A DNA stretch of 7,737 bases from Candidatus Heimdallarchaeota archaeon B3_Heim (GCA_003144275.1 NJBF01000082.1:1-7737), one strand, 5' to 3'; positions 1-7,737 are shown, counted from the first letter of the stretch. A program made the numbers and translations. Notes: generated from the sequence alone by a model not told the origin.

Positions 1-317
1 GATAAAGATGTGATCAGCACACCAACTAATAAAAGAAAAGTAGACACAATAATTTGTCTCAGTAACCAATTTTCCTGATCTTTTGCACTGGAATGCTCTT
101 GTGATTCTCTTTCTGGAATAGCAATTGCTCCAGGTTCTATTTTCGATATTATAGAGTTAATATCAGTGACATCATCTGATCCGATGTGTAAACGTCGTGT
201 AGCAAAATTCAATTGGACCGAAGAATAACCTTCTTGCTTCAAAGTCCTTTCAATTTTCATTGCACAATCGGTACAGGATAAACCCTGAAGCAGGTAAGCA
301 TGTTTTTCTTGTGCCAC
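1..317 (-). CDS. cadA: Heavy-metal translocating P1B-type ATPase (CadA/ZntA-like), 5' part only, runs off the window
   Basis: Not in the ORF track. Hand translation from GTG at 317 gives MAQEKHAYLLQGLSCTDCAMKIERTLKQEGYSSVQLNFATRRLHIG...ENWLLRQIIVSTFLLLVGVLITSL, an HMA domain with GLSCxxC followed by a first TM helix. The frame is open to the window edge. It starts 12 nt after the ArsR stop with an SD-like GAGTGA. Zn/Cd rather than Cu specificity is inferred from the regulator, since the CPC and DKTGT motifs lie outside the window. Confidence 0.82.
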   Translation of the reverse strand, partial: MAQEKHAYLLQGLSCTDCAMKIERTLKQEGYSSVQLNFATRRLHIGSDDVTDINSIISKIEPGAIAIPERESQEHSSAKDQENWLLRQIIVSTFLLLVGVLITSL

Positions 318-329
318 GGAATCACTCTC

Positions 330-686
330 TTAACTAGCTTCTTCTTCCTTCATATGAGCTAAAGTTTGAGCCAGAATAGGATGAAGATGCTCCCTTTCTA
401 GGGTATAAAAGATTTGTTTTCCATCCCGTCGAGTTTTTACCAATCTATGTTGTCTTAAATAACGAAGTTGATGAGAAATTGCCGATTGTTTTGCATTCAA
501 TGTCGTACTAATATCGCACACACATAGCTCTACTTCAGAGAGAGCAAGAAGAATTTTAATTCGAGTTTCACCAGCTAAAAGCTTAAAGAAGCCAGCTAAC
601 TCGGCGGGATTACTATCCTCAAGTGTTTTTTTAGCATGAGCGACATTATCTGGATGAATTACAAATTCTTCACAATCGTTTGACAT
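330..686 (-). CDS. ArsR/SmtB-family metal-sensing repressor (CadC/SmtB/ZiaR-like)
   Basis: 118 aa with FKLLAGETRIKIL, the ELCVCD alpha3 motif, a SAISHQLR recognition helix and the RRDGKQIFY wing. N-terminal C5/H11. Lies directly upstream of the P1B ATPase. Confidence 0.95.
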   Translation of the reverse strand: MSNDCEEFVIHPDNVAHAKKTLEDSNPAELAGFFKLLAGETRIKILLALSEVELCVCDISTTLNAKQSAISHQLRYLRQHRLVKTRRDGKQIFYTLEREHLHPILAQTLAHMKEEEAS

Positions 687-742
687 TTGGAGCCGTACCT
701 AAGGTTTAATATCTTTAAACTTAAAATGATACCCATAGGAAT

Positions 743-764
743 CATATGAACAATCATTCATATG
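743..764. promoter_or_regulatory. ArsR/SmtB operator (perfect 8-6-8 inverted repeat)
   Basis: CATATGAA-CAATCA-TTCATATG. The core TGAACA-N2-CATTCA resembles the established SmtB/CzrA box (TGAACA-N2-TATTCA). It lies 57-78 nt upstream of the regulator start codon. Confidence 0.8.
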
Positions 765-794
765 TCTTTAGGTTTGGGAACTACTCGTGAAAAG

Positions 795-816
795 TAGGTT
801 TTTTGGTCAAAACCTA
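795..816. promoter_or_regulatory. Second perfect 8-6-8 inverted repeat, possible binding site of an unknown regulator
   Basis: TAGGTTTT-TTGGTC-AAAACCTA in the divergent intergenic region. The symmetry is seen directly and the function is inferred. Confidence 0.35.
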
Positions 817-919
817 ACCATATTTATATATGAAAGCCGAATTGGAGCATAAATTAGCATCTCTACGATATTCGGGGATTATATATTAAAATTCGAATAT
901 CAATTGTCAATAGTGAATT

Positions 920-1165
920 AAACTCATTCTCTCTGAAGCTACAACAATTATGGCTGTCATTGATGAATATCCTTTTTTGACCGAAGCCTTGGTAGAACTA
1001 GATCCAATATTACGACGTTTTAAAAATCCTATCCTAAGGAAAACCGTTGAATTCAATCACTCACTTTATCAGGTGTGTGGCTGCCACTACTTCACTTTCG
1101 AGGAGGTAATACGTGAAAACAGATTTTTTGGGTATTTAAAATCTATTATTGGTTTTCAATTATAA
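920..1165 (+). pseudogene. Start-less DUF1858-like fragment duplicating the N-terminus of the 3190 gene (residual ORF 950-1165, 71 aa)
   Basis: 920-1048 encodes KLILSEATTIMAVIDEYPFLTEALVELDPILRRFKNPILRKTV, against KLVLSEATKIMDVIDEYPFLTEVLVELDPILRRFKNPILRKTV at 3196-3324 (39/43 aa identical). An in-frame TGA sits at 914-916, and the SD and ATG present in the other copy are absent. Translation from ATG 950 cannot be excluded. Confidence 0.7.
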
Positions 1166-1248
1166 CGTCCTTTACCATAGTATCATTATGTAAAGTTTTA
1201 TTAGGCTTTTATGTACAGTCTATTTAAGGAATTAAAGGTTGATTCCCA

Positions 1249-1971
1249 ATGAATCTTTATGAAAAACCTCCAAAAAATGTATGGAGATGCACAACCCCCG
1301 AATCACCAAGGAAGGATTCGGATTCCTTTATGTCGATTGTAGTATGTGGTTACGGATTCTGGACAGATCGTGGAATAACTGAATTAGTGCATGCCTTTGC
1401 TTATATCTACCCCTCTTCACCCATTGAAAAAATAATAGAATACACAAATGATTATTATAGTAAAACTGTAGAGCACAATGTAACAGGATTTTCCGTTAAA
1501 CCCCCTCATTTTTTCTATCCAGTAGAAGTGTGGGATCTAAGTAGTGGACGGTATGAAAGGCTTGATCAGAGGGATAGACATTTTACAGAATTCTATACCT
1601 ATGAGAATATTAAAAGTCCTTTCAGTTTTTTTTTAGGAAAAAAATCTGTAATCGTGCTTTGTGATTCTATAATAGACGACACAGGTTTTAACGATTTATA
1701 TAGTCATTGGTTACCTCTTATGGACGACAAGACTCCACGATTCCTGGTCGAATCTGACTACATGGATGATGGATGGTCTTTGGAGGATGATTGGATACAG
1801 GCCAACATAAAGAGAAGACGCCCGAACGAATCGGAGTTGTCTCAAAAAGAATTTAATTGTATTAAGAGATTTTTCTGCAAAGTTAGAGACACTCAATGTA
1901 CCCGTGATATTTTTTCATATTTATTAGATTTTTTAAGTAACATATCACCAAAGGATGAGTCAGAGGGATAA
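1249..1971 (+). CDS. Hypothetical protein, putative degenerate small-GTPase (Ras/Rho-like) fold
   Basis: 240-aa ORF with SD-like AAGGTTGA upstream. Ordered lookalikes of the G-domain elements: SIVVCG..GITELVHAF, YSKTV, VEVWDLSSG, LGKKSVIVLCD, GFNDLYSHWLP, TPRFLVE, RFFCKVRDTQCTRDIFSYLL. The CDS is well supported. The fold call comes from pattern recognition only (about 0.45). Confidence 0.75.
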   Translation: MNLYEKPPKNVWRCTTPESPRKDSDSFMSIVVCGYGFWTDRGITELVHAFAYIYPSSPIEKIIEYTNDYYSKTVEHNVTGFSVKPPHFFYPVEVWDLSSGRYERLDQRDRHFTEFYTYENIKSPFSFFLGKKSVIVLCDSIIDDTGFNDLYSHWLPLMDDKTPRFLVESDYMDDGWSLEDDWIQANIKRRRPNESELSQKEFNCIKRFFCKVRDTQCTRDIFSYLLDFLSNISPKDESEG

Positions 1972-2054
1972 TCTTACTATTTCCTTGCATTGTATTTTTT
2001 TAGGGTATCTAATATGAGTACGGTAAATAAGTTACAGAGGTCGTGATCATACCT

Positions 2055-2282
2055 ATGAGTGAATTTTTAGAAAAAGATTATCCTCATACTATTGTTAGTA
2101 TCGAACCTGACACTTCGGAAGAACCTATTACCAAAATTTATATGAAAAACGCCTACGGGAAGACTGTTCTCCACCTAGTTGATGAAACGCCTTATGCACC
2201 CGACTTCAATGAGAAAACAGAATATATGGAGAAACTAGCTAAGGAAACTGGAATGGAAACTTTCGGAATTTATCCTGATTAA
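2055..2282 (+). CDS. Small hypothetical protein (75 aa from ATG 2055, or 79 aa from GTG 2043)
   Basis: Open frame with protein-like composition and SD-like GAGGTCGTGA at 2037-2046, whose spacing favours ATG 2055. No family recognised. Confidence 0.6.
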   Translation: MSEFLEKDYPHTIVSIEPDTSEEPITKIYMKNAYGKTVLHLVDETPYAPDFNEKTEYMEKLAKETGMETFGIYPD

Positions 2283-2644
2283 AAAAAATCTTATTTCTGG
2301 GCATATTCTTTTGATAAATCGTAGTCATCATCATTTTCCTGATGTACCTATCAAATATGAAGATGTAATTCGCAAACGATTTAATATTCTTTTTCCTTAC
2401 AACTAATCTTTTGGTTATCACACTATAAGATTTGAAGATCATGCTTACGAAATCCATATCAACTCTACTTCTAGATGATAATATAACATCTTATATTATT
2501 TCTGTTTATAGTGAATCAGAAGGAGAGAGAAAAAAACAACGAGATGAATTACATTTTTGGATGAAATTATTTTTAGAATCTAAAGATGAATTCATACCTA
2601 AATTTTTAGACAAATATGCAACACAATTTACTCCTAGTGGATAA
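2281..2644 (+). pseudogene. Possible decayed gene (internal stop plus frameshift)
   Basis: Frame +1 reads ..LISGHILLINRSHHHFPDVPIKYEDVIRKRFNILFPYN*SFGYHTIRFEDHAYEIHINSTSR* (TAA at 2404-2406). Frame +2 then carries the 2432-2644 ORF (..LDDNITSYIISVYSESEGERKKQRDELHFWMKLF..). No convincing start or SD was found. Confidence 0.25.
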
Positions 2645-2670
2645 AAATCCTCATTTGAGATGACATTATA

Positions 2671-2922
2671 ATGAAAAATATAATACAAGACCTTGATTCT
2701 GGTGTTTTACAAAAAATACAAGATGTGATAGGAGAAGAAAAAAAACGACAACTTGGTTATCGTTCGATTTCTGGGGCTTATGTAACTGTTGAAAAACTTC
2801 TTTCTGTTGAGGATCGTGGAGATAGTTTCATTGTTATCGCAGATATACATTCAGGGGTTCAAGATGATACACGAAATGACACCTATGACGAAGAATGGAC
2901 TGTAAATATTTCTAAAAAGTAG
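2671..2922 (+). CDS. Small hypothetical protein (83 aa)
   Basis: ATG-started open frame with an amphipathic helix followed by beta-strand-like segments. No family recognised and no clear SD. Confidence 0.6.
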   Translation: MKNIIQDLDSGVLQKIQDVIGEEKKRQLGYRSISGAYVTVEKLLSVEDRGDSFIVIADIHSGVQDDTRNDTYDEEWTVNISKK

Positions 2923-2983
2923 GAAAAATAACTGATGCTATTCTGAAAGCCTTTAAGGGTGTTGACGACCCTAATTTGAGAGT

Positions 2984-3327
2984 GAATCAACTAGAAATAT
3001 CTTCATATGTGTTTGGTTTTACTTGTTACTTCTGAATCTTGGGTTTATTAGTCGAAAACAAACCTGTCTGAAGAAGAAGATGTAAATTAAAAGATAAATT
3101 TACTACTCTACGATTTTCGGGGATTACGTATTAAAATCATAGATATAATTGTCAATAGTGAAATCGATTCTCATCGTTGGTGAAAAAATATGCCTAAATT
3201 AGTCCTTTCAGAAGCAACTAAGATTATGGATGTCATTGATGAATACCCATTCTTAACTGAAGTCTTGGTTGAGCTAGACCCAATATTACGACGCTTCAAA
3301 AATCCTATCTTACGTAAAACAGTCGGA
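2984..3327 (+). repeat. Diverged direct repeat, right copy (partner 739-1051)
   Basis: Contains a decayed operator (CAACTAGA-AATATC-TTCATATG, 2988-3009), a decayed second IR (3040-3061), the conserved promoter blocks, the SD GGTGA (3179-3183) and the first ~45 codons of the DUF438 gene. Confidence 0.93.
3106..3183 (+). promoter_or_regulatory. Putative promoter and SD of the DUF438-LLM operon
   Basis: Blocks conserved between the repeat copies: CTCTACGAT(T/A)TTCGGGGATTA (20/21), TATA-like TATTAAAAT and AATTGTCAATAGTGAA (16/16). SD GGTGA at 3179-3183 lies 6 nt before ATG 3190. Confidence 0.55.
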
Positions 3328-4593
3328 AGACGAGCCACCCTTACCGATGTATCAGATATGATTAATAAAGATCTACAAGATGTAATTTCTTTCTTCTCTA
3401 AAAAGATAGAGGAATCTACAACCACTAAAGTAAAACAAATCGTAGGATCAGAAAGGATAAGTGGATGGGAAGATGAACATACCCGAAAACGTGAAATGTT
3501 GAAAGCATTAGTTCTCGAGCTTCATGCAGGAGGAGAACTTCAGACATTAAAAGCACGATTCAAAGAAATTTTAGGAGATATTGAGGCAACAGATATTGCT
3601 TCAATGGAACAAGAGCTTATTGACTCAGGAGAATTAACTGTTGATCAAATAACCTTGTTGTGCGATTTGCATGTTGGTATTTTTGAGGACACACTCTCTG
3701 AACATAAAAAACCACAAACTATGCCAGGCCACCCCATTCATACCTATATGGCAGAAAATTCAGAGGCCAAAAAAATAATTGCGAAACTCAGAGAGAATCC
3801 GTCACCAGAATTAATTAAAGAACTTGCAAAAATTGAGATTCACTACACACGTCTTGAAAATCAACTATTCCCAATGTTAGAAAAAAAAGATTTCGCTGGT
3901 CCCTCACAAGTAATGTGGGCGAAACATGATGAAACAAGACAATTATTCCGTGAAGGTGAAGACGTGGATCTTGAAGAACTCACTTCTCAAGTGGAAGATA
4001 TGACATTCAAGGAGGAAACAATTCTTTTTCCAACCAGTTTAGAATTATTGACAACGTTAGACTGGCAAACAGTGAAACGTGGTGAGGAGGAAATTGGATT
4101 CGCCTGGGTTACCCCTGGAGATGAGTGGAAACCACTTACACCTGATATTATACATCAGACCCCTACTCCCGACATCACAGCTGATACTTTAGACCTTAAT
4201 ACTGGAAAATTAACTTTAGAACAGATTGATTTAATGCTTACACACCTTCCGATTGAGATCTCGTATATCAACGCACAAGATGAAGTTCTCTATTATTCTG
4301 GGGCAAAAGAACGAATATTTCCCCGAAGTCCAGGAGTTATCGGGAGAAAGGTGCAAAAATGTCATCCTCCGAAAAGTTTAGAGAAAGTGATTCAGATAAT
4401 TGAAGCTTTTAGATCAGGAAGGAAGGATCAGGCAGAATTTTGGATCACAATGGAAGGGAAGTTTTTACATATCCGATACTTTGCGGTTAGAGATGACAAT
4501 GGAGAATATCAAGGAACGATCGAAGTTATGCAAGATGTAACTTCCATCCGTGCTCTCGAAGGGGAAAGAAGATTGGTCAACTGGGAAGATTAG
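3190..4593 (+). CDS. DUF438-family protein: DUF1858 + DUF438 + hemerythrin-like + PAS (PAS_10-type) domains
   Basis: N-terminal DUF1858-like YPFLTEVL..NPILRKTVGRRATL. DUF438 LKALVLELHAG..LCDLHVGIF. Hemerythrin-like PGHPIHTYMAEN, HYTRLENQLFP, VMWAKHD and FKEETILFP. C-terminal PAS with RIFPRSPGVIGRKVQKCHPPKS..EFWI..IRYFAVRD..GEYQGTIEVMQDV. Confidence 0.92.
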   Translation: MPKLVLSEATKIMDVIDEYPFLTEVLVELDPILRRFKNPILRKTVGRRATLTDVSDMINKDLQDVISFFSKKIEESTTTKVKQIVGSERISGWEDEHTRKREMLKALVLELHAGGELQTLKARFKEILGDIEATDIASMEQELIDSGELTVDQITLLCDLHVGIFEDTLSEHKKPQTMPGHPIHTYMAENSEAKKIIAKLRENPSPELIKELAKIEIHYTRLENQLFPMLEKKDFAGPSQVMWAKHDETRQLFREGEDVDLEELTSQVEDMTFKEETILFPTSLELLTTLDWQTVKRGEEEIGFAWVTPGDEWKPLTPDIIHQTPTPDITADTLDLNTGKLTLEQIDLMLTHLPIEISYINAQDEVLYYSGAKERIFPRSPGVIGRKVQKCHPPKSLEKVIQIIEAFRSGRKDQAEFWITMEGKFLHIRYFAVRDDNGEYQGTIEVMQDVTSIRALEGERRLVNWED

Positions 4594-4612
4594 CAACTAG
4601 AAGGAAATAATT

Positions 4613-5626
4613 TTGCCAAAACAAACAAAACTTGGATTTACCATAAGTTACGACTTTTTACCTCCCTCGCAAACTCACGATTTACTAGAAGTTCTTGATA
4701 ATTCTGCATTTACCCATATATTCGTACCAGAAGTATGGGGGTATGATGCGTTCCATGAGTGTGCACGAATGGCAACCCAAACTGAAAATCTTGTCTTTGG
4801 AACAGGGATTGTCAATATGTACTCACGCTCACCAGCTACTATGGCACAGGCGGCAGCGAGTATTGATGAGCAAACCGAAGGACGGTTTATATTAGGAGTG
4901 GGATTAAGTGGACCTAAAGTTGTTCAAAACTGGCATGGTTTAGATTACTACCATGGATCTCCAATGCAACGTACCCGTGAGTACTTGGAAATCCTTCACC
5001 TCATATTTTCAGGAGAAACAGTTAATTACGATACAGGAACCATTTTTAAACTGAAAAACTTCAAGTTACGCACGTTTGAAACCCCAGTAAAGGTACCCGT
5101 ATACTTAGCGGCTTTCGGAACTAAGAATGTTCAGCTAGCAGGTGAATTAGCGGATGGATGGTTACCGATCTGGACTTCATATCCCGAAATACCTAGTTTA
5201 AAGGACAATTTCGAAAAAGGGATAGCGAAACGTCAAAAAATTGACAATAAGGATAAAGAGATTGCCCCCTTCATTGTAACATGTGCCTCTGAAGATCCTA
5301 AAGCAAAATACTATGTCCAAAAGCAATTATCATTCTATATCGGAGGAATGGGAACCTATTACGCACGGGTAGCAAAACAATATGGTTTTACAGAAGAAGT
5401 AGATCGAATAACTCGAGCTTGGAATGCCGGAGATAGAGAACTAGCATTGAAGGAAGTAAGTGAGGAAATGTTAGCAAGGCTTGCAGCGGTAGGCCCACCT
5501 GAAAAAGTCTTAGCCCGATATGAAACGCTTAGAAAAAGTGGTATCACAAATCCAGTTGTATGGTTACCAGTTGGATGTCCCCCTGCATTAGCTCTGGAAA
5601 CTATTCATACATTCCAAGACAGTTAG
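4613..5626 (+). CDS. LLM-class flavin/F420-dependent oxidoreductase (Mer-like)
   Basis: 337 aa, TTG start 19 nt after the DUF438 stop, with SD-like AAGGA. Motifs: VPEVWGYDAF, GTGIVNMYSRSPATMAQAAASIDE..GRFILGVGLSGP..WHG and PVYLAAFG..QLAGELADGW. F420 use is inferred from family resemblance and the substrate is unknown. Confidence 0.92.
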   Translation: MPKQTKLGFTISYDFLPPSQTHDLLEVLDNSAFTHIFVPEVWGYDAFHECARMATQTENLVFGTGIVNMYSRSPATMAQAAASIDEQTEGRFILGVGLSGPKVVQNWHGLDYYHGSPMQRTREYLEILHLIFSGETVNYDTGTIFKLKNFKLRTFETPVKVPVYLAAFGTKNVQLAGELADGWLPIWTSYPEIPSLKDNFEKGIAKRQKIDNKDKEIAPFIVTCASEDPKAKYYVQKQLSFYIGGMGTYYARVAKQYGFTEEVDRITRAWNAGDRELALKEVSEEMLARLAAVGPPEKVLARYETLRKSGITNPVVWLPVGCPPALALETIHTFQDS

Positions 5627-5637
5627 AAGGGGTGTAA

Positions 5638-6156
5638 TTAGATATTTTCGTCTACTGATGTGTCCAATTCATCAAAGTAATATAGATAGTCTCCCTCAAC
5701 TCTAGGTTTATTTAAAGCTTTAAAACAGTAGTTCAATTGGCCACGATGATATATAGTATGGATAATATATTGTAAGTAGAAATCGTCTTTCATCATACAA
5801 AAAGAATCCCCATCTCGCCGAGGAACAGCCACTGTACCATCCAAATTATTCTGAATCTCATGCCCTAATTGATTATCCAAATTTTTCCACAATTCAATGA
5901 GTGTTGATTGTGTGTACTCATCTAAAAGATGATAAAATCCGTCTGGAGCATTCAGGTGATCGAAAAACGAAAGTTCAATTTTCAGAAGTGAAAAGCACCG
6001 TAACAATGCTGAACATATATGTACAACCTTTTCCTTAGTTGAACCAAGTGTAGACCCGAGATCCAGAACAAATTCTTCTTCAGATAACTCTTGAAGGATT
6101 GCGCGTGATTTTTCTCCAACCCATGAGTGGTATTTTGCTAAATTTTTCATTCCCAT
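5638..6156 (-). CDS. DinB/YfiT-like family protein
   Basis: 172 aa with N-terminal LAKYHSWVGEKSRAIL, a His triad pattern (VVHIC; IIHTIYHRGQL) and C-terminal EGDYLYY. SD-like GGAGA upstream. Convergent with the LLM gene across an 11-nt gap. Confidence 0.88.
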   Translation of the reverse strand: MGMKNLAKYHSWVGEKSRAILQELSEEEFVLDLGSTLGSTKEKVVHICSALLRCFSLLKIELSFFDHLNAPDGFYHLLDEYTQSTLIELWKNLDNQLGHEIQNNLDGTVAVPRRDGDSFCMMKDDFYLQYIIHTIYHRGQLNYCFKALNKPRVEGDYLYYFDELDTSVDENI

Positions 6157-6371
6157 TGATAAATCTCCGATGGAAGGTAGGTACGAATGTATTGCCAGCC
6201 TAATCTGGAATTATTTAACCTTCTTGTTCCTAAAACAGTCATAATGATTTGAGTGAATCAAAGAATTTAAGACACGATTTTACCTCTAATTAAATGATTA
6301 AATATGTGGGGAAGAATTCTCAGAGTCATAAGGTTGGTTAAGTATTTATCAGGCATTGGGAAAGAAAACTG

Positions 6372-7442
6372 ATGGAAATGGACGAAATCGGGATTACATA
6401 TAAAAATCTACAGGAAACTCTTGTAGCAAGTATTAGAACGGGTATTAAGAGTTTAACAGATATTTCCAATACAGTGGAACAATTAAATACGTCCATGCCC
6501 AAAAAAATAATCACAGGGCCAGCATTTGGTAGAACAAATTGGATATCTTCCCTTCTCAAAGATCAAGGAACCGACATGGAAATTGGTTTTCCAGTATCTT
6601 CAGAATTCAACATGGGAAATATCAAATCGAGAATATTGCCCAAACGAGAAGTTTTGTCGATTATCCATACTGGTCCTGTAGATCAGAAACACATGACATC
6701 TAAGAAATTATGGGAGTATGTAACAAAAAAAGGGTTAATTTCAGATGAATTCATTATGGAATTCTATCTAGACTCGAATAATCCCCAGGGTAATGAAATA
6801 GAAATTCAGTTCATTATTCATAACTGGCAAGAATTGTTTACACAGCATACAGAACGAGTATTAGGCGCAGATATAGCTAAGACGATCAATCCGAAACCCC
6901 TAGAACTGGAGGCAGCGCTTGAAGCTCGTCTCGAATGGGCAAAAAAGGCTATAATCAAAGCTAATTGTCATGCAAGTGAGGTTGAAACATACGATATTTT
7001 ATCGAGCTGCGCACATGTATTTCCGTCTGAACCTATTGAGAAAATGAAAAGCACTTACGAGACAGCAAGAGAAACCATGACTCCTCTAGCCTCCATTGAT
7101 CATGTATTAGCTATGATGACCAAAGATCGTGCATGGGGAAGTGCTCCAATCAGAGAGGAAAATGTTCTCATAGCAACTAAAAATCCTGCCAATCGTGAAG
7201 CTTTTGAAAAAGCGACTACTAGTGCAGAAAAACGACGAGCAGCTTGTTTTTGCCCAGTAATTCGAAATTCTCTTGATGATGCAGATATTCCTAAAGAATA
7301 TTGCTTATGTAGTGCAGGTTGGTTTCGACGTCAATGGGAAGGTGCATTATCACAATCAGTCAAAGTTGATATCCTAAAAACGGTGTTAAAAGGGGATGAA
7401 GTCTGTCAGTTTGCCATTCTTATTCCAGAAAATCTTAAGTGA
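6372..7442 (+). CDS. GyrI-like small-molecule-binding domain fused to a Cys-rich DUF6144/V4R-like domain
   Basis: About the first 150 aa are GyrI-like (LVASIR..GPAF..DMEIGFPV..REVLSIIHTGP..LWEYV..MEFYLD..IEIQF). The C-terminal part has SSCAH, CFCPVI, YCLCSAGWF..VKVDILKTVLKGDEVCQFAI. No HTH was seen. Confidence 0.85.
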   Translation: MEMDEIGITYKNLQETLVASIRTGIKSLTDISNTVEQLNTSMPKKIITGPAFGRTNWISSLLKDQGTDMEIGFPVSSEFNMGNIKSRILPKREVLSIIHTGPVDQKHMTSKKLWEYVTKKGLISDEFIMEFYLDSNNPQGNEIEIQFIIHNWQELFTQHTERVLGADIAKTINPKPLELEAALEARLEWAKKAIIKANCHASEVETYDILSSCAHVFPSEPIEKMKSTYETARETMTPLASIDHVLAMMTKDRAWGSAPIREENVLIATKNPANREAFEKATTSAEKRRAACFCPVIRNSLDDADIPKEYCLCSAGWFRRQWEGALSQSVKVDILKTVLKGDEVCQFAILIPENLK

Positions 7443-7737
7443 AGAAATATGGATTTCAATAATTCAAATTCAAGGGTTGTTAACCATCTATTGTTATAAT
7501 AGCCAAATATAACAAAATAGGAAGAGAAAACTTCAAGGGGAAGAGAGAAACAAAAAGCAAGTCAACATAGGAAGAGCGAATAGAGACTAAAATATTGAAT
7601 TAATAGAGGAATAAACGGATCTCATGAGATTATAGCTCCAACGGTGAACTAATTAACCTCTTAATATTAAAATAATGGAAAATTAGCAATTTTGATTTAG
7701 ATCACGTGGCCTAGTAGGTTTATAAGAAGAAAAGCGC

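What the first reader, a model, noticed from the sequence alone, without database searches (positions are those of the whole stretch)
739..3327. A ~310-340 bp diverged direct repeat brackets a 1.9 kb insert, and the two copies have lost complementary functions
The whole divergent control region plus ~45 codons of the DUF438 gene is present twice (739-1051 and 2984-3327). The left copy keeps two perfect palindromes (743-764, 795-816) and a TATA-like TATTTATATAT (821-831), but lacks 31 nt carrying the SD GGTGA and the ATG. The right copy keeps SD, ATG and the full gene, but both palindromes are broken and the 821-831 element is gone. This implies an ancestral back-to-back arsR/cadA and DUF438 locus that was split into two specialised halves with orphan genes in between. 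The geometry fits single-crossover integration of a ~2.25 kb circle, or homology-facilitated illegitimate recombination with a related donor, without any integrase in the insert.
Basis: partly seen in the sequence, partly recalled or inferred. Interest (0 to 1): 0.8.

Follow-up and report, generated by a model that had tools for sequence, protein, structure and literature searches.

The report
Gene-start duplicate marking a swapped cassette
In an Asgard archaeon, about 2 kb of accessory genes sits between a metal-regulator gene and a sensor gene, flanked by a working and a dead copy of the sensor gene's promoter and first 46 codons; relatives suggest the whole block was swapped in from another species by ordinary recombination, a known kind of scar seen here at a gene's front end.

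Summary
The repeat is real: 739-1051 versus 2984-3327, with a 31-nt gap in the left copy that removes the SD and ATG. The predicted empty allele exists. Three congeners, including the nearest relative G013 (96-98% identical elsewhere), have arsR back-to-back with the DUF438 gene.

The "two specialised halves" reading fails. A second Hodarchaeales lineage (L080/L081) carries the same two copies and related cargo. Its left copy keeps the SD and a start codon but has lost the TATA-like box. The two left copies differ from each other in a neutral pattern ([5,4,4] by codon position). The first palindrome is a single-copy, conserved ArsR-type operator at the repeat's border. The second palindrome and the "TATA" are not conserved.

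The insertion did not arise in this genome. Against G013, a sharply bounded tract (703-3528) is 11-45% divergent, and L080 becomes the nearest relative inside it. This fits import of an already occupied allele by homologous recombination in arsR and DUF438. An assembly chimera is not excluded.

The main cargo gene is a degenerate Ras-family GTPase homologue. No recombinase is present. How the duplication first formed is unresolved.

This scan has noted the same kind of scar before on other DNA, mostly at 3' gene ends. Moderate interest.

The parts
3..317 (-). 5' part of a cadA-like heavy-metal ATPase gene (HMA domain); it runs off the contig
   Evidence: Pfam HMA E 2.6e-07. The full 699-aa E1-E2 ATPase is seen at the same place in L080.
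330..686 (-). arsR-family repressor gene (118 aa)
   Evidence: Pfam HTH_5 E 1.2e-14. 99% aa identity to G013.
741..766 (.). Probable ArsR/SmtB operator: a 12-2-12 imperfect inverted repeat whose core is the perfect palindrome CATATGAA-N6-TTCATATG at 743-764. It is single-copy and lies at the left border of the repeat.
   Evidence: Conserved (85-93%) in G013, G018, G003 and L080 next to arsR. The only exact copy in the 3.95-Mb genome. The architecture matches PMC8790569. Binding was not tested.
703..3528 (.). Divergent tract relative to the near-identical genome G013; read as an imported haplotype that holds both repeat copies and the cargo
   Evidence: Window vs G013: 3.7% mismatches over 1-702, then dense mismatches from 703. 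Max-chi2 right breakpoint at 3529, with 56/339 vs 59/2572 mismatches, Fisher p 4.7e-24 and 0/300 permutations reaching it. Genome-wide baseline 96-97%.
739..1051 (+). Left copy of the repeat: a displaced, decaying copy of the DUF438 promoter region and codons 3-46
   Evidence: Alignments. Neutral substitution pattern between the window and L080 left copies, [5,4,4]. Different lesions in the two lineages.
859..917 (+). Promoter-like block retained in the left copy: CTCTACGATaTTCGGGGAT, TATTAAAAT and AATTGTCAATAGTGAA
   Evidence: The same block is conserved upstream of all five functional genes of this subgroup. Activity is an inference.
918..919 (+). Site of the 31-nt deletion that removed the rest of the 5' leader, the SD GGTGA and the ATG from the left copy
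   Evidence: The L080 left copy still has this segment with GGTGA and a GTG start, so the deletion is secondary.
950..1165 (+). 71-aa open frame: an internal Met of the DUF1858 remnant running into unrelated sequence; read as a pseudogene
   Evidence: Pfam DUF1858 scores 21.4 bits, below the 32.2 cutoff. Homology to DUF438 stops at 1051. L080 ends its remnant differently.
1052..2983 (+). Cargo of the insert (GC 33%), with no mobility gene and no RNA gene
   Evidence: Pfam and PHROGs give nothing significant. No Rfam family or tRNA. Not found in 21 congeners by DNA.
1249..1971 (+). orf240: a degenerate Ras-family small-GTPase homologue (pseudo-GTPase)
   Evidence: hhalign against genus Ras-family proteins gives 94.5% probability, E 8e-08, over 169 columns. 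Those proteins hit Pfam Ras at E 1e-27 to 1e-30. The Atlas model matches Ras-like folds at TM 0.54-0.60. G1-G5 motifs are degenerate. Only two other family members were found among 5.8 billion proteins.
2043..2282 (+). orf79, a small ORF shared only with the L080 lineage; coding status doubtful
   Evidence: Differences from the L080 copy by codon position are [13,4,6], which is not a coding pattern.
2312..3025 (+). Segment absent from the L080 allele. It holds orf70 (2432-2644), orf83 (2671-2922) and the first ~40 nt of the right copy.
   Evidence: BLAST of the window against L080. orf83 is a singleton.
2984..3327 (+). Right copy of the repeat: the working promoter region, SD, ATG and first 46 codons of the DUF438 gene. 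It starts with only the right arm of the operator (TTCATATG, 3002-3009).
3190..4593 (+). DUF1858-DUF438-hemerythrin-PAS sensor-type gene (467 aa). Codons 1-113 lie inside the divergent tract.
   Evidence: Pfam. Third-codon-position distance to G013 is 0.37 in codons 1-113 against 0.06 in the rest; to L080 it is 0.21 against 0.45.

Best explanation
The repeat is the scar of an accessory cassette lodged between the arsR operator and the promoter of the DUF438 sensor gene in some Hodarchaeales (Asgard archaea).

The right copy (2984-3327) is the working promoter, SD, ATG and first 46 codons. The left copy (739-1051) is a displaced spare that now decays neutrally. The cassette carries a degenerate Ras-like GTPase gene (orf240) and small orphan ORFs, and it has no recombinase.

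This occupied allele is older than this genome. It exists, with its own later deletions and a tandem orf240 duplication, in a second lineage (L080/L081). The nearest relative of the window (G013) and two other congeners have the empty site.

In the window's genome the whole block 703-3528, both copies included, has a different ancestry from its flanks. The most likely route is import as a ready-made haplotype from another species of the genus, by homologous recombination with one crossover at the arsR start and one near codon 113 of DUF438.

Shown: the repeat, the empty and occupied alleles, neutral decay of the left copy, the sharp mosaic, and the cargo's homology to Ras-family proteins.

Inferred: that the window's genome is the recipient, and that host recombination is the mechanism.

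Unresolved: how the duplication first formed. My odds are about 0.45 for Campbell-type or homology-facilitated illegitimate recombination between two related lineages, about 0.35 for in-situ duplication with captured DNA followed by overwriting of the working copy, and about 0.2 for something else.
For: - Repeat.
- Empty allele with the same flanking genes in G013, G018 and G003, spacer 258-301 nt.
- Second occupied allele on a 50.9-kb contig and on a 99.9% identical contig from another sample. It has its own 267-nt direct repeat (75% identity) and orf240 paralogues.
- Left copy window vs L080: differences [5,4,4] by codon position. Left copy vs any functional copy: about [2-4, 3, 16-18].
- The lesions differ between lineages. 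The window lost the SD and ATG but kept the promoter motifs. L080 kept the SD and a GTG start but lost the TATA-like box.
- Mosaic: window vs G013 is 96-100% over 1-702 and 3529-7442 but 57-89% over 703-3528. Breakpoint at 3529, p 4.7e-24. Baseline is 96-97% on three other contigs.
- Tract tree groups window with L080 (73% bootstrap). The tree for the rest of the gene groups window with G013 (100%). Third-position distances are 0.21/0.37 in the tract vs 0.45/0.06 in the rest.
- Cargo is 86% identical to L080 against 78% for the flanks.
- G013's single copy is 73-87% like the window's right copy and 42-79% like its left copy. It is therefore not a recent deletion product of a window-like allele, and the window is not a simple insertion into a G013-like allele.
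- No mobility gene in the window or among the genes called on the 20 kb of L080 fetched.
Against: - No reads could be laid on the junctions of this contig, so a co-assembly chimera of two populations could mimic the mosaic.
- Bootstrap for window+L080 in the tract is only 73%.
- The tract is itself mosaic. The window's right-copy intergenic part is nearer G013 (distance 0.09 in its proximal half) than L080. The leader 703-741 resembles neither. L080's right copy has a left-copy-type intergenic part joined to a window-type coding part.
- The donor lineage was not found.
- Only two independent occupied lineages are known, and no close relative of L080 is available to test for the same mosaic there.
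Confidence: 0.66

Rival explanations
1. A ~2.25-kb circle, or a linear donor fragment, integrated in this very genome by a single crossover or by homology-facilitated illegitimate recombination at the arsR/DUF438 spacer. The two copies then specialised: the left keeps the regulatory palindromes and the right keeps the SD, ATG and gene.
For: The geometry fits. An empty allele exists. No integrase is present. The left copy switches from native-like to foreign-like right after the operator. One metagenome contig joins 1969 back to 752.
Against: The 'native' right copy is not native. Codons 1-113 differ from G013 at 37% of third positions, against 6.5% in the rest. Both copies and the cargo are shared with L080. 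The left copies evolve neutrally and lost different elements in each lineage. Palindrome 1 is a single-copy conserved operator. Palindrome 2 and 821-831 are not conserved.
Confidence: 0.07
2. The mosaic is an assembly artefact. The contig joins a G013-like population (1-702 and 3529 onward) to a co-occurring population that really carries the occupied allele. On this reading there was no recombination in this organism.
For: The genome is a MAG with 103 contigs and 3.9% contamination, and the window is a short 7.7-kb contig. The switches lie in conserved stretches. No run holding this contig could be laid.
Against: Identical runs with G013 at the switches are only about 42 nt (661-702) and 38 nt (3529-3566). 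That is shorter than the final k-mers of common assemblers, which is my inference. Real recombination also resolves in conserved stretches. The bin holds no second, empty-allele contig. The architecture arsR - copy - cargo - copy - DUF438 is independently assembled twice in L080/L081.
Confidence: 0.12
3. The cassette is the remnant of a site-specific integrative element of the e14/icd type, which carried its own replacement gene start. The palindrome is its attachment site.
For: There is a displaced gene end beside a cassette. An 8-6-8 palindrome sits exactly at the repeat border, and both copies share an identical TTCATATGT there. Earlier notes of this scan describe integrase-less cassette systems in this genus (leads only).
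Against: No integrase lies in the window or among the genes called on the 20 kb of L080 fetched. The right copy has a different 'spacer' and no left arm. The palindrome is conserved with arsR in empty alleles and is unique in the genome. No CCAGCC-type cassette site lies at the junctions. Known Asgard elements use tyrosine integrases with short motifs or tRNA targets.
Confidence: 0.06
4. The occupied state is ancestral for the group, and G013, G018 and G003 lost the cassette by recombination between the two copies.
For: Direct repeats can delete what lies between them. The rhs model (PMC2935791) uses exactly such excision.
Against: A recent deletion product would be about 97% identical to one or other window copy on each side of its crossover. 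G013's copy is 73-87% and 42-79% identical. All three empty alleles are of one type along their whole length. The copies now share at most 16 identical bases in a row.
Confidence: 0.05

Closest known systems
Insertion with long target duplication (Nobusato et al. 2000; Furuta et al. 2010, PMC2853133)
   Same: A few kb of genes with no mobility gene, flanked by a direct repeat of tens to hundreds of bp that is single-copy at the empty site of a related genome.
   Different: The cargo is not a restriction-modification system. The repeat copies are only 56-82% alike, against 90-99% in the published cases. The duplicated target is a promoter plus 5' coding end. The host is an archaeon, and no archaeal case passed their screen.
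Displacement of gene ends at rhs, CDI and T6SS loci (Jackson et al. 2009, PMC2935791; Kirchberger et al. 2017, PMC5361080)
   Same: An incoming module with a homologous gene part shunts the old part aside as a silent fragment. The proposed mechanisms are homologous recombination with a circular intermediate, or homology-facilitated illegitimate recombination.
   Different: There the constant part is the 5' core, and 3' tips pile up downstream. Here the 5' end and promoter are displaced upstream. Only one displaced copy exists, and there is no toxin/immunity logic.
e14 prophage in icd, with the icdC pseudogene (Hill et al. 1989; PMC13626634)
   Same: A working gene end and a displaced, slightly different end fragment flank the insert.
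   Different: e14 has an integrase and a defined att core, it excises on SOS induction, and it displaces a 3' end. None of this is seen here.
Integrated mobile elements described in Asgard archaea (PMC11529989, PMC8813620)
   Same: They are accessory DNA in Asgard chromosomes that varies between relatives.
   Different: Those elements encode tyrosine integrases or transposases and use an 11-bp motif or tRNA genes. This cassette has no such gene and no such site.

Membership tests
Insertion with long target duplication | Direct repeat longer than 30 bp flanking the insert | tested here: met
   313/344-nt repeat.
Insertion with long target duplication | The repeated sequence is single-copy at the same site in a related genome | tested here: met
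   G013, G018 and G003 have one copy between arsR and DUF438.
Insertion with long target duplication | No integrase, transposase or IS in or beside the insert; insert under 20 kb | tested here: met
   Pfam and PHROGs are negative for all cargo ORFs. No such family among the genes called on L080. Insert is 1.9 kb.
Campbell-type single-crossover integration of a circle | The two copies are reciprocal host/donor hybrids around one crossover | tested here: inconclusive
   The window's left copy is native-like up to 765 and foreign-like after it, but the right copy is not native either. L080's right copy is a hybrid of intergenic and coding types.
Campbell-type single-crossover integration of a circle | A circular form of the unit exists | tested here: inconclusive
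   One 151-nt Logan contig (depth 2) joins 1969 to 752. It could equally be a tandem duplication, another allele or a library chimera.
Homology-facilitated illegitimate recombination | One homologous joint and one illegitimate joint with short microhomology | tested here: inconclusive
   Homology ends abruptly at 1051/1052 and at ~2984. Which joint was made in which lineage cannot be told, because the donor was not found.
Site-specific integrative element with a carried gene end (e14/icd type) | Integrase or recombinase gene associated with the insert | tested here: not met
   None in the window or among the genes called on the L080 locus.
Site-specific integrative element with a carried gene end (e14/icd type) | An identical att core at both ends, with matching spacer | tested here: not met
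   Only TTCATATGT is shared at the left border. The upstream 'spacer' differs (CAATCA vs AATATC) and the left arm is absent.
ArsR/SmtB 12-2-12 operator (for 741-766) | Imperfect 12-2-12 inverted repeat with a TGAA...TTCA core, near the regulated or divergent promoter | tested here: met
   ATCATATGAACA-AT-CATTCATATGTC lies 57-79 nt upstream of the arsR ATG. The architecture is as in PMC8790569.
ArsR/SmtB 12-2-12 operator (for 741-766) | Conserved with the regulator gene across orthologous loci and specific to it | tested here: met
   85-93% conserved in G013, G018 and G003, with half-sites kept in L080. Unique in the genome.
ArsR/SmtB 12-2-12 operator (for 741-766) | Bound by the repressor | not testable with these tools
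   Needs EMSA or footprinting.
Ras-superfamily small GTPase (for orf240) | Homology to the G domain | tested here: met
   hhalign 94.5%, E 8e-08, against genus proteins that hit Pfam Ras at E 1e-27 to 1e-30. Atlas structure TM 0.54-0.60.
Ras-superfamily small GTPase (for orf240) | Intact G1 (GxxxxGK[ST]), G3 (DxxG), G4 ([NT]KxD) and G5 (SAK) motifs; Pfam gathering score reached | tested here: not met
   The motifs read GYGFWTDRGIT, WDLSSGR, ESDY and KVR. No Pfam hit. It is therefore filed as a degenerate homologue and not as a GTPase.
   Neutral [5,4,4] pattern between the left copies. Opposite lesions in the window and in L080.

The most novel reading that the evidence does not exclude
The unit 752-1969 (right half of the operator, a copy of the DUF438 promoter and first codons, then the dead-GTPase gene; 1,218 nt) may be a small integrase-less element that exists as a circle or tandem array. 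On this reading it homes to the DUF438 promoter of related species through its own copy of that promoter, which would also drive its cargo. It would then be one case of a general, host-recombination-driven cassette traffic at gene ends in Hodarchaeales.
Probability: 0.12. Interest if true: 0.65.

Novelty: new member of a known kind. Interest (0 to 1): 0.36.

Why it matters
This locus gives a clean matched pair of empty and occupied alleles in two genomes that are 96-98% identical elsewhere, with both recombination borders mapped to within a few tens of bases. If reads confirm the contig, it is a concrete sign that Hodarchaeales, the archaea placed closest to eukaryotes, exchange accessory genes between species by plain homologous recombination in conserved flanking genes, with no dedicated mobile-element enzyme. 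It also shows that the displaced-gene-end scar, known mainly from 3' ends of bacterial toxin and restriction loci, can involve a promoter and a 5' end. Finally, it corrects a tempting over-reading: differences between diverged repeat copies looked like division of labour but turned out to be random decay.

Tried and rejected
- Public reads: no run was listed for window 600-3600. For orf240 only two small-share holders were listed, and no RNA holder was listed. Laying them gave short Logan contigs of relatives. None spans a junction of this contig, so the assembly could not be verified.
- Exact-pattern scans for an invariant orf240 23-mer (metagenome and genome contigs) and for a 21-mer typical of the left-copy sequence type (metagenome contigs) found nothing. 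The donor lineage remains unknown.
- The AlphaFold2 model of orf240 from a 3-sequence alignment was unusable (pLDDT 32), so no fold search was run.
- Short DNA matches of window 1081-1152 in three congeners are only a generic SD/start context.
- orf83 has no relative and orf79 only the L080 one. PHROGs gave nothing significant. No Rfam family or tRNA.
- The CCAGCC-type cassette sites of earlier scan notes are absent from the junctions. The single CCAGCC at 6195 does not match the recurring flanks.
- The sigma-70 promoter scan was not used because the organism is an archaeon.
- Insert GC (33%) is not distinct enough from the flanks (37-38%) to argue for a distant origin.
Full report
OBSERVATION. 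The window is a complete 7,737-bp contig of a 3.95-Mb, 103-contig MAG (94% complete, 36% GC). The direct repeat is real. Ungapped identity is 56% for 739-839 vs 2984-3084, 75% for 840-918, and 79% for 919-1051 vs 3195-3327. It is 26% just outside both ends, and random pairs from the window give 27 +/- 4.5%. In the whole genome the left copy matches only itself and the right copy (E 3.7e-27). The left copy lacks 31 nt that hold GGTGA (3179-3183) and the ATG (3190) in the right copy. Both perfect palindromes (743-764 and 795-816) exist, but three such 8-nt-arm palindromes in 7.7 kb is close to the 1.9 +/- 1.7 expected.

GENES AND ORGANISM. From left to right:
- cadA-like HMA start (3-317, minus strand) and arsR (330-686, minus strand);
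- the left copy, with a 71-aa DUF1858-like open frame (950-1165, below the Pfam cutoff);
- orf240, orf79, orf70 and orf83, none with a Pfam family;
- the right copy, heading a 467-aa DUF1858-DUF438-hemerythrin-PAS gene (3190-4593);
- a luciferase-like monooxygenase gene, a DinB gene and orf356.
Record titles of the orthologous loci place the genome in the Hodarchaeales, Heimdall-group Asgard archaea.

THE EMPTY ALLELE EXISTS. G013 (95% aa identity for DUF438), G018 and G003 have cadA, arsR, DUF438, LLM, DinB and orf356 in the same order and orientation. The arsR-DUF438 spacer there is only 258-301 nt. The insert DNA was not found in 21 congeners. With orf240 as a protein query, only distant Ras-family relatives were found, in 3 of the 82 other genomes of the class.

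A SECOND OCCUPIED ALLELE. Among 5.8 billion proteins, orf240 has just two relatives. Both lie on a 50.9-kb Hodarchaeales contig (L080), and the region recurs at 99.9% identity in a second sample (L081). It is the same locus: arsR, a left copy, two tandem orf240 paralogues, an orf79 homologue, a right copy, then DUF438. Its own direct repeat is 267 nt at 75% identity.

Compared with the window, L080 lacks 1031-1167 and 2312-3025. It keeps the 31 nt missing from the window's left copy, with GGTGA and a GTG start. So the architecture is not an artefact of this contig, it predates this genome, and the loss of SD and ATG is a private, secondary deletion.

THE LEFT COPY IS A DECAYING RELIC. Over 38 shared codons:
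- the two left copies differ at [5,4,4] first, second and third codon positions, a neutral pattern;
- the two right copies differ at [1,0,4];
- a left copy differs from any functional copy at about [2-4, 3, 16-18].

Functional genes of this subgroup share an upstream block: CTCTACGATTTTCGGGGAT, N4, TATTAAAAT, N11, AATTGTCAATAGTGAA, N22, GGTGA, N7, ATG. The window's left copy keeps the promoter-like motifs but lost SD and ATG. L080's left copy keeps SD and start but has a degraded TATA-like box. Opposite lesions in two lineages point to random decay and not to division of labour.

THE PALINDROMES. CATATGAA-N6-TTCATATG (743-764) is conserved next to arsR in all four other genomes, empty alleles included. 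It is unique in the genome and fits the 12-2-12 inverted repeat bound by SmtB/ArsR repressors (PMC8790569). It sits at the border of the repeat, and the right copy contains only its right arm. It is therefore a single-copy operator that stayed with arsR, not an element 'broken' in one copy. The second palindrome is imperfect in both L080 copies and absent from G013, G018 and G003. The 821-831 'TATA' is not conserved anywhere.

THE MOSAIC. Three arbitrary 4-kb regions on other contigs are 96-97% identical and collinear with G013. On this contig:
- coding flanks are 95.5-98.4% identical and a vertically inherited spacer is 90.7% identical;
- mismatches to G013 are 3.7% over 1-702, then become dense from 703 onward;
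- on the right, a maximum chi-square scan puts the change at 3529, with 56/339 against 59/2572 mismatches, Fisher p 4.7e-24 and 0 of 300 permutations reaching it.

Third-position distances for DUF438 codons 1-113 are 0.37 to G013 and 0.21 to L080. For the rest of the gene they are 0.06 and 0.45. Trees switch from (window, L080) at 73% bootstrap to (window, G013) at 100%. The cargo is 86% identical to L080, against 78% for the flanks.

G013's single copy is neither about 97% like the window's right copy (73-87%) nor like its left copy (42-79%). This excludes a recent deletion in G013, and it excludes a simple insertion into a G013-like allele.

The simplest reading is that the window's lineage received an already occupied haplotype, related to L080's, through crossovers at the arsR start and near DUF438 codon 113. 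Polarity rests on the window's excess similarity to L080 inside the tract. Inside the tract G013 is still as far from G018 and G003 as it is elsewhere (0.49-0.52 against 0.47-0.48), though it is also somewhat nearer L080 there (0.33 against 0.45).

ORIGIN OF THE DUPLICATION: UNRESOLVED. The third-position bias between left and right coding parts suggests that the two copies came from different lineages when they were joined. That would fit Campbell-type integration or homology-facilitated illegitimate recombination. However, the locus has been overwritten more than once:
- L080's right copy has an intergenic part that clusters with the left copies (90-100% support) joined to a coding part that clusters with the window's right copy;
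- the window's right-copy intergenic part is nearer G013;
- the leader 703-741 resembles neither G013 nor L080.
An in-situ duplication with captured DNA, followed by recombinational replacement of the working copy, is therefore not excluded. In this genome the copies now share at most 16 identical bases in a row, so excision by homologous recombination is probably inefficient (inference).

CARGO. Weak matches of orf240 in congeners, and in this genome's C88, are canonical Ras-family proteins (Pfam Ras E 1e-27 to 1e-30). A profile-profile comparison gives 94.5% probability, E 8e-08, over the whole G domain. The Atlas model resembles Ras-like folds at TM 0.54-0.60. All nucleotide-binding motifs are degenerate. 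Substitutions against the L080 copy are [39,21,42], so constraint is at most weak. orf79 shows no coding pattern, and orf70 and orf83 are unique. There is no recombinase, RNA gene or known att-type site.

A LOOSE END. In an unrelated sediment metagenome, one 151-nt contig (depth 2, about 97% like the window) joins 1969, the orf240 stop, directly to 752, the operator spacer followed by left-copy-type sequence. The bases AATC are shared at the joint. A circle or a tandem of a 1,218-nt unit, another allele, or a library chimera would each explain it.

COMPARISON AND NOVELTY. The geometry meets the published criteria for 'insertion with long target duplication' (PMC2853133). It mirrors gene-end displacement at rhs and T6SS loci, for which homologous recombination with circular intermediates or HFIR has been proposed (PMC2935791, PMC5361080). 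It resembles e14/icd only in leaving a displaced gene-end fragment. It differs from described Asgard mobile elements, which carry integrases. Earlier notes of this scan report the same kind of scar on other DNA, including in Hodarchaeales, mostly at 3' ends. Those notes were used as leads only. This is a new member of a known kind. Its particular points are the displaced promoter and 5' end, the archaeal host, and well-mapped recombination borders.

CAVEATS. This is a MAG contig with no read support. The donor is unsampled. Only two occupied lineages are known, and the regions compared are short (about 110-340 nt).

Noticed in passing
window 7443-7737; L025 (G013): Synteny with G013 ends right after orf356 (~7451). 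The homologue of 7544-7734 lies about 3 kb further on in G013 (74% identity), so there is a second insertion/deletion difference between these near-identical genomes on the same contig.
   Followed up: no
L032:2069-2266 (G017:C124): A lone 65-aa DUF1858 ORF, most similar to the N-terminus of the second type of DUF438 gene in this genus, with no DUF438/hemerythrin/PAS part behind it. It is either a stand-alone small gene or another displaced gene start.
   Followed up: partly
loci L009/L010 (G032, G036) vs L012-L015: DUF438 orthologues in another family of the class (G032, G036) are 72-73% identical to the window's protein, closer than those of several congeners (58-60%). Either two gene types coexist in the genus or the gene has moved between families.
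   Followed up: no
L080:9188-10585: The L080 allele has an old tandem duplication of the orf240 gene (71% nt identity between the copies). The second copy can be read as 240 aa from an ATG at 9863, although the source calls it as 194 aa.
   Followed up: partly
window 519-561: Within arsR, 8 of the 26 mismatches to G013 in 1-702 cluster in 43 nt. This may be a small separate recombination patch.
   Followed up: no
window 743-764, 795-816, 2478-2499: All three perfect 8-nt-arm palindromes of the window have a 6-nt spacer, but their sequences are unrelated. Probably coincidence.
   Followed up: no
window 1191-1915 as laid in run X2: A marine metagenome holds fragments about 90% identical to orf240, so the family occurs in at least one further, unsampled lineage.
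   Followed up: no
window 6192-6212: There is a single CCAGCC site in the DinB-orf356 spacer. It does not share the flanks of the recurring CCAGCC sites elsewhere in this genome.
   Followed up: partly
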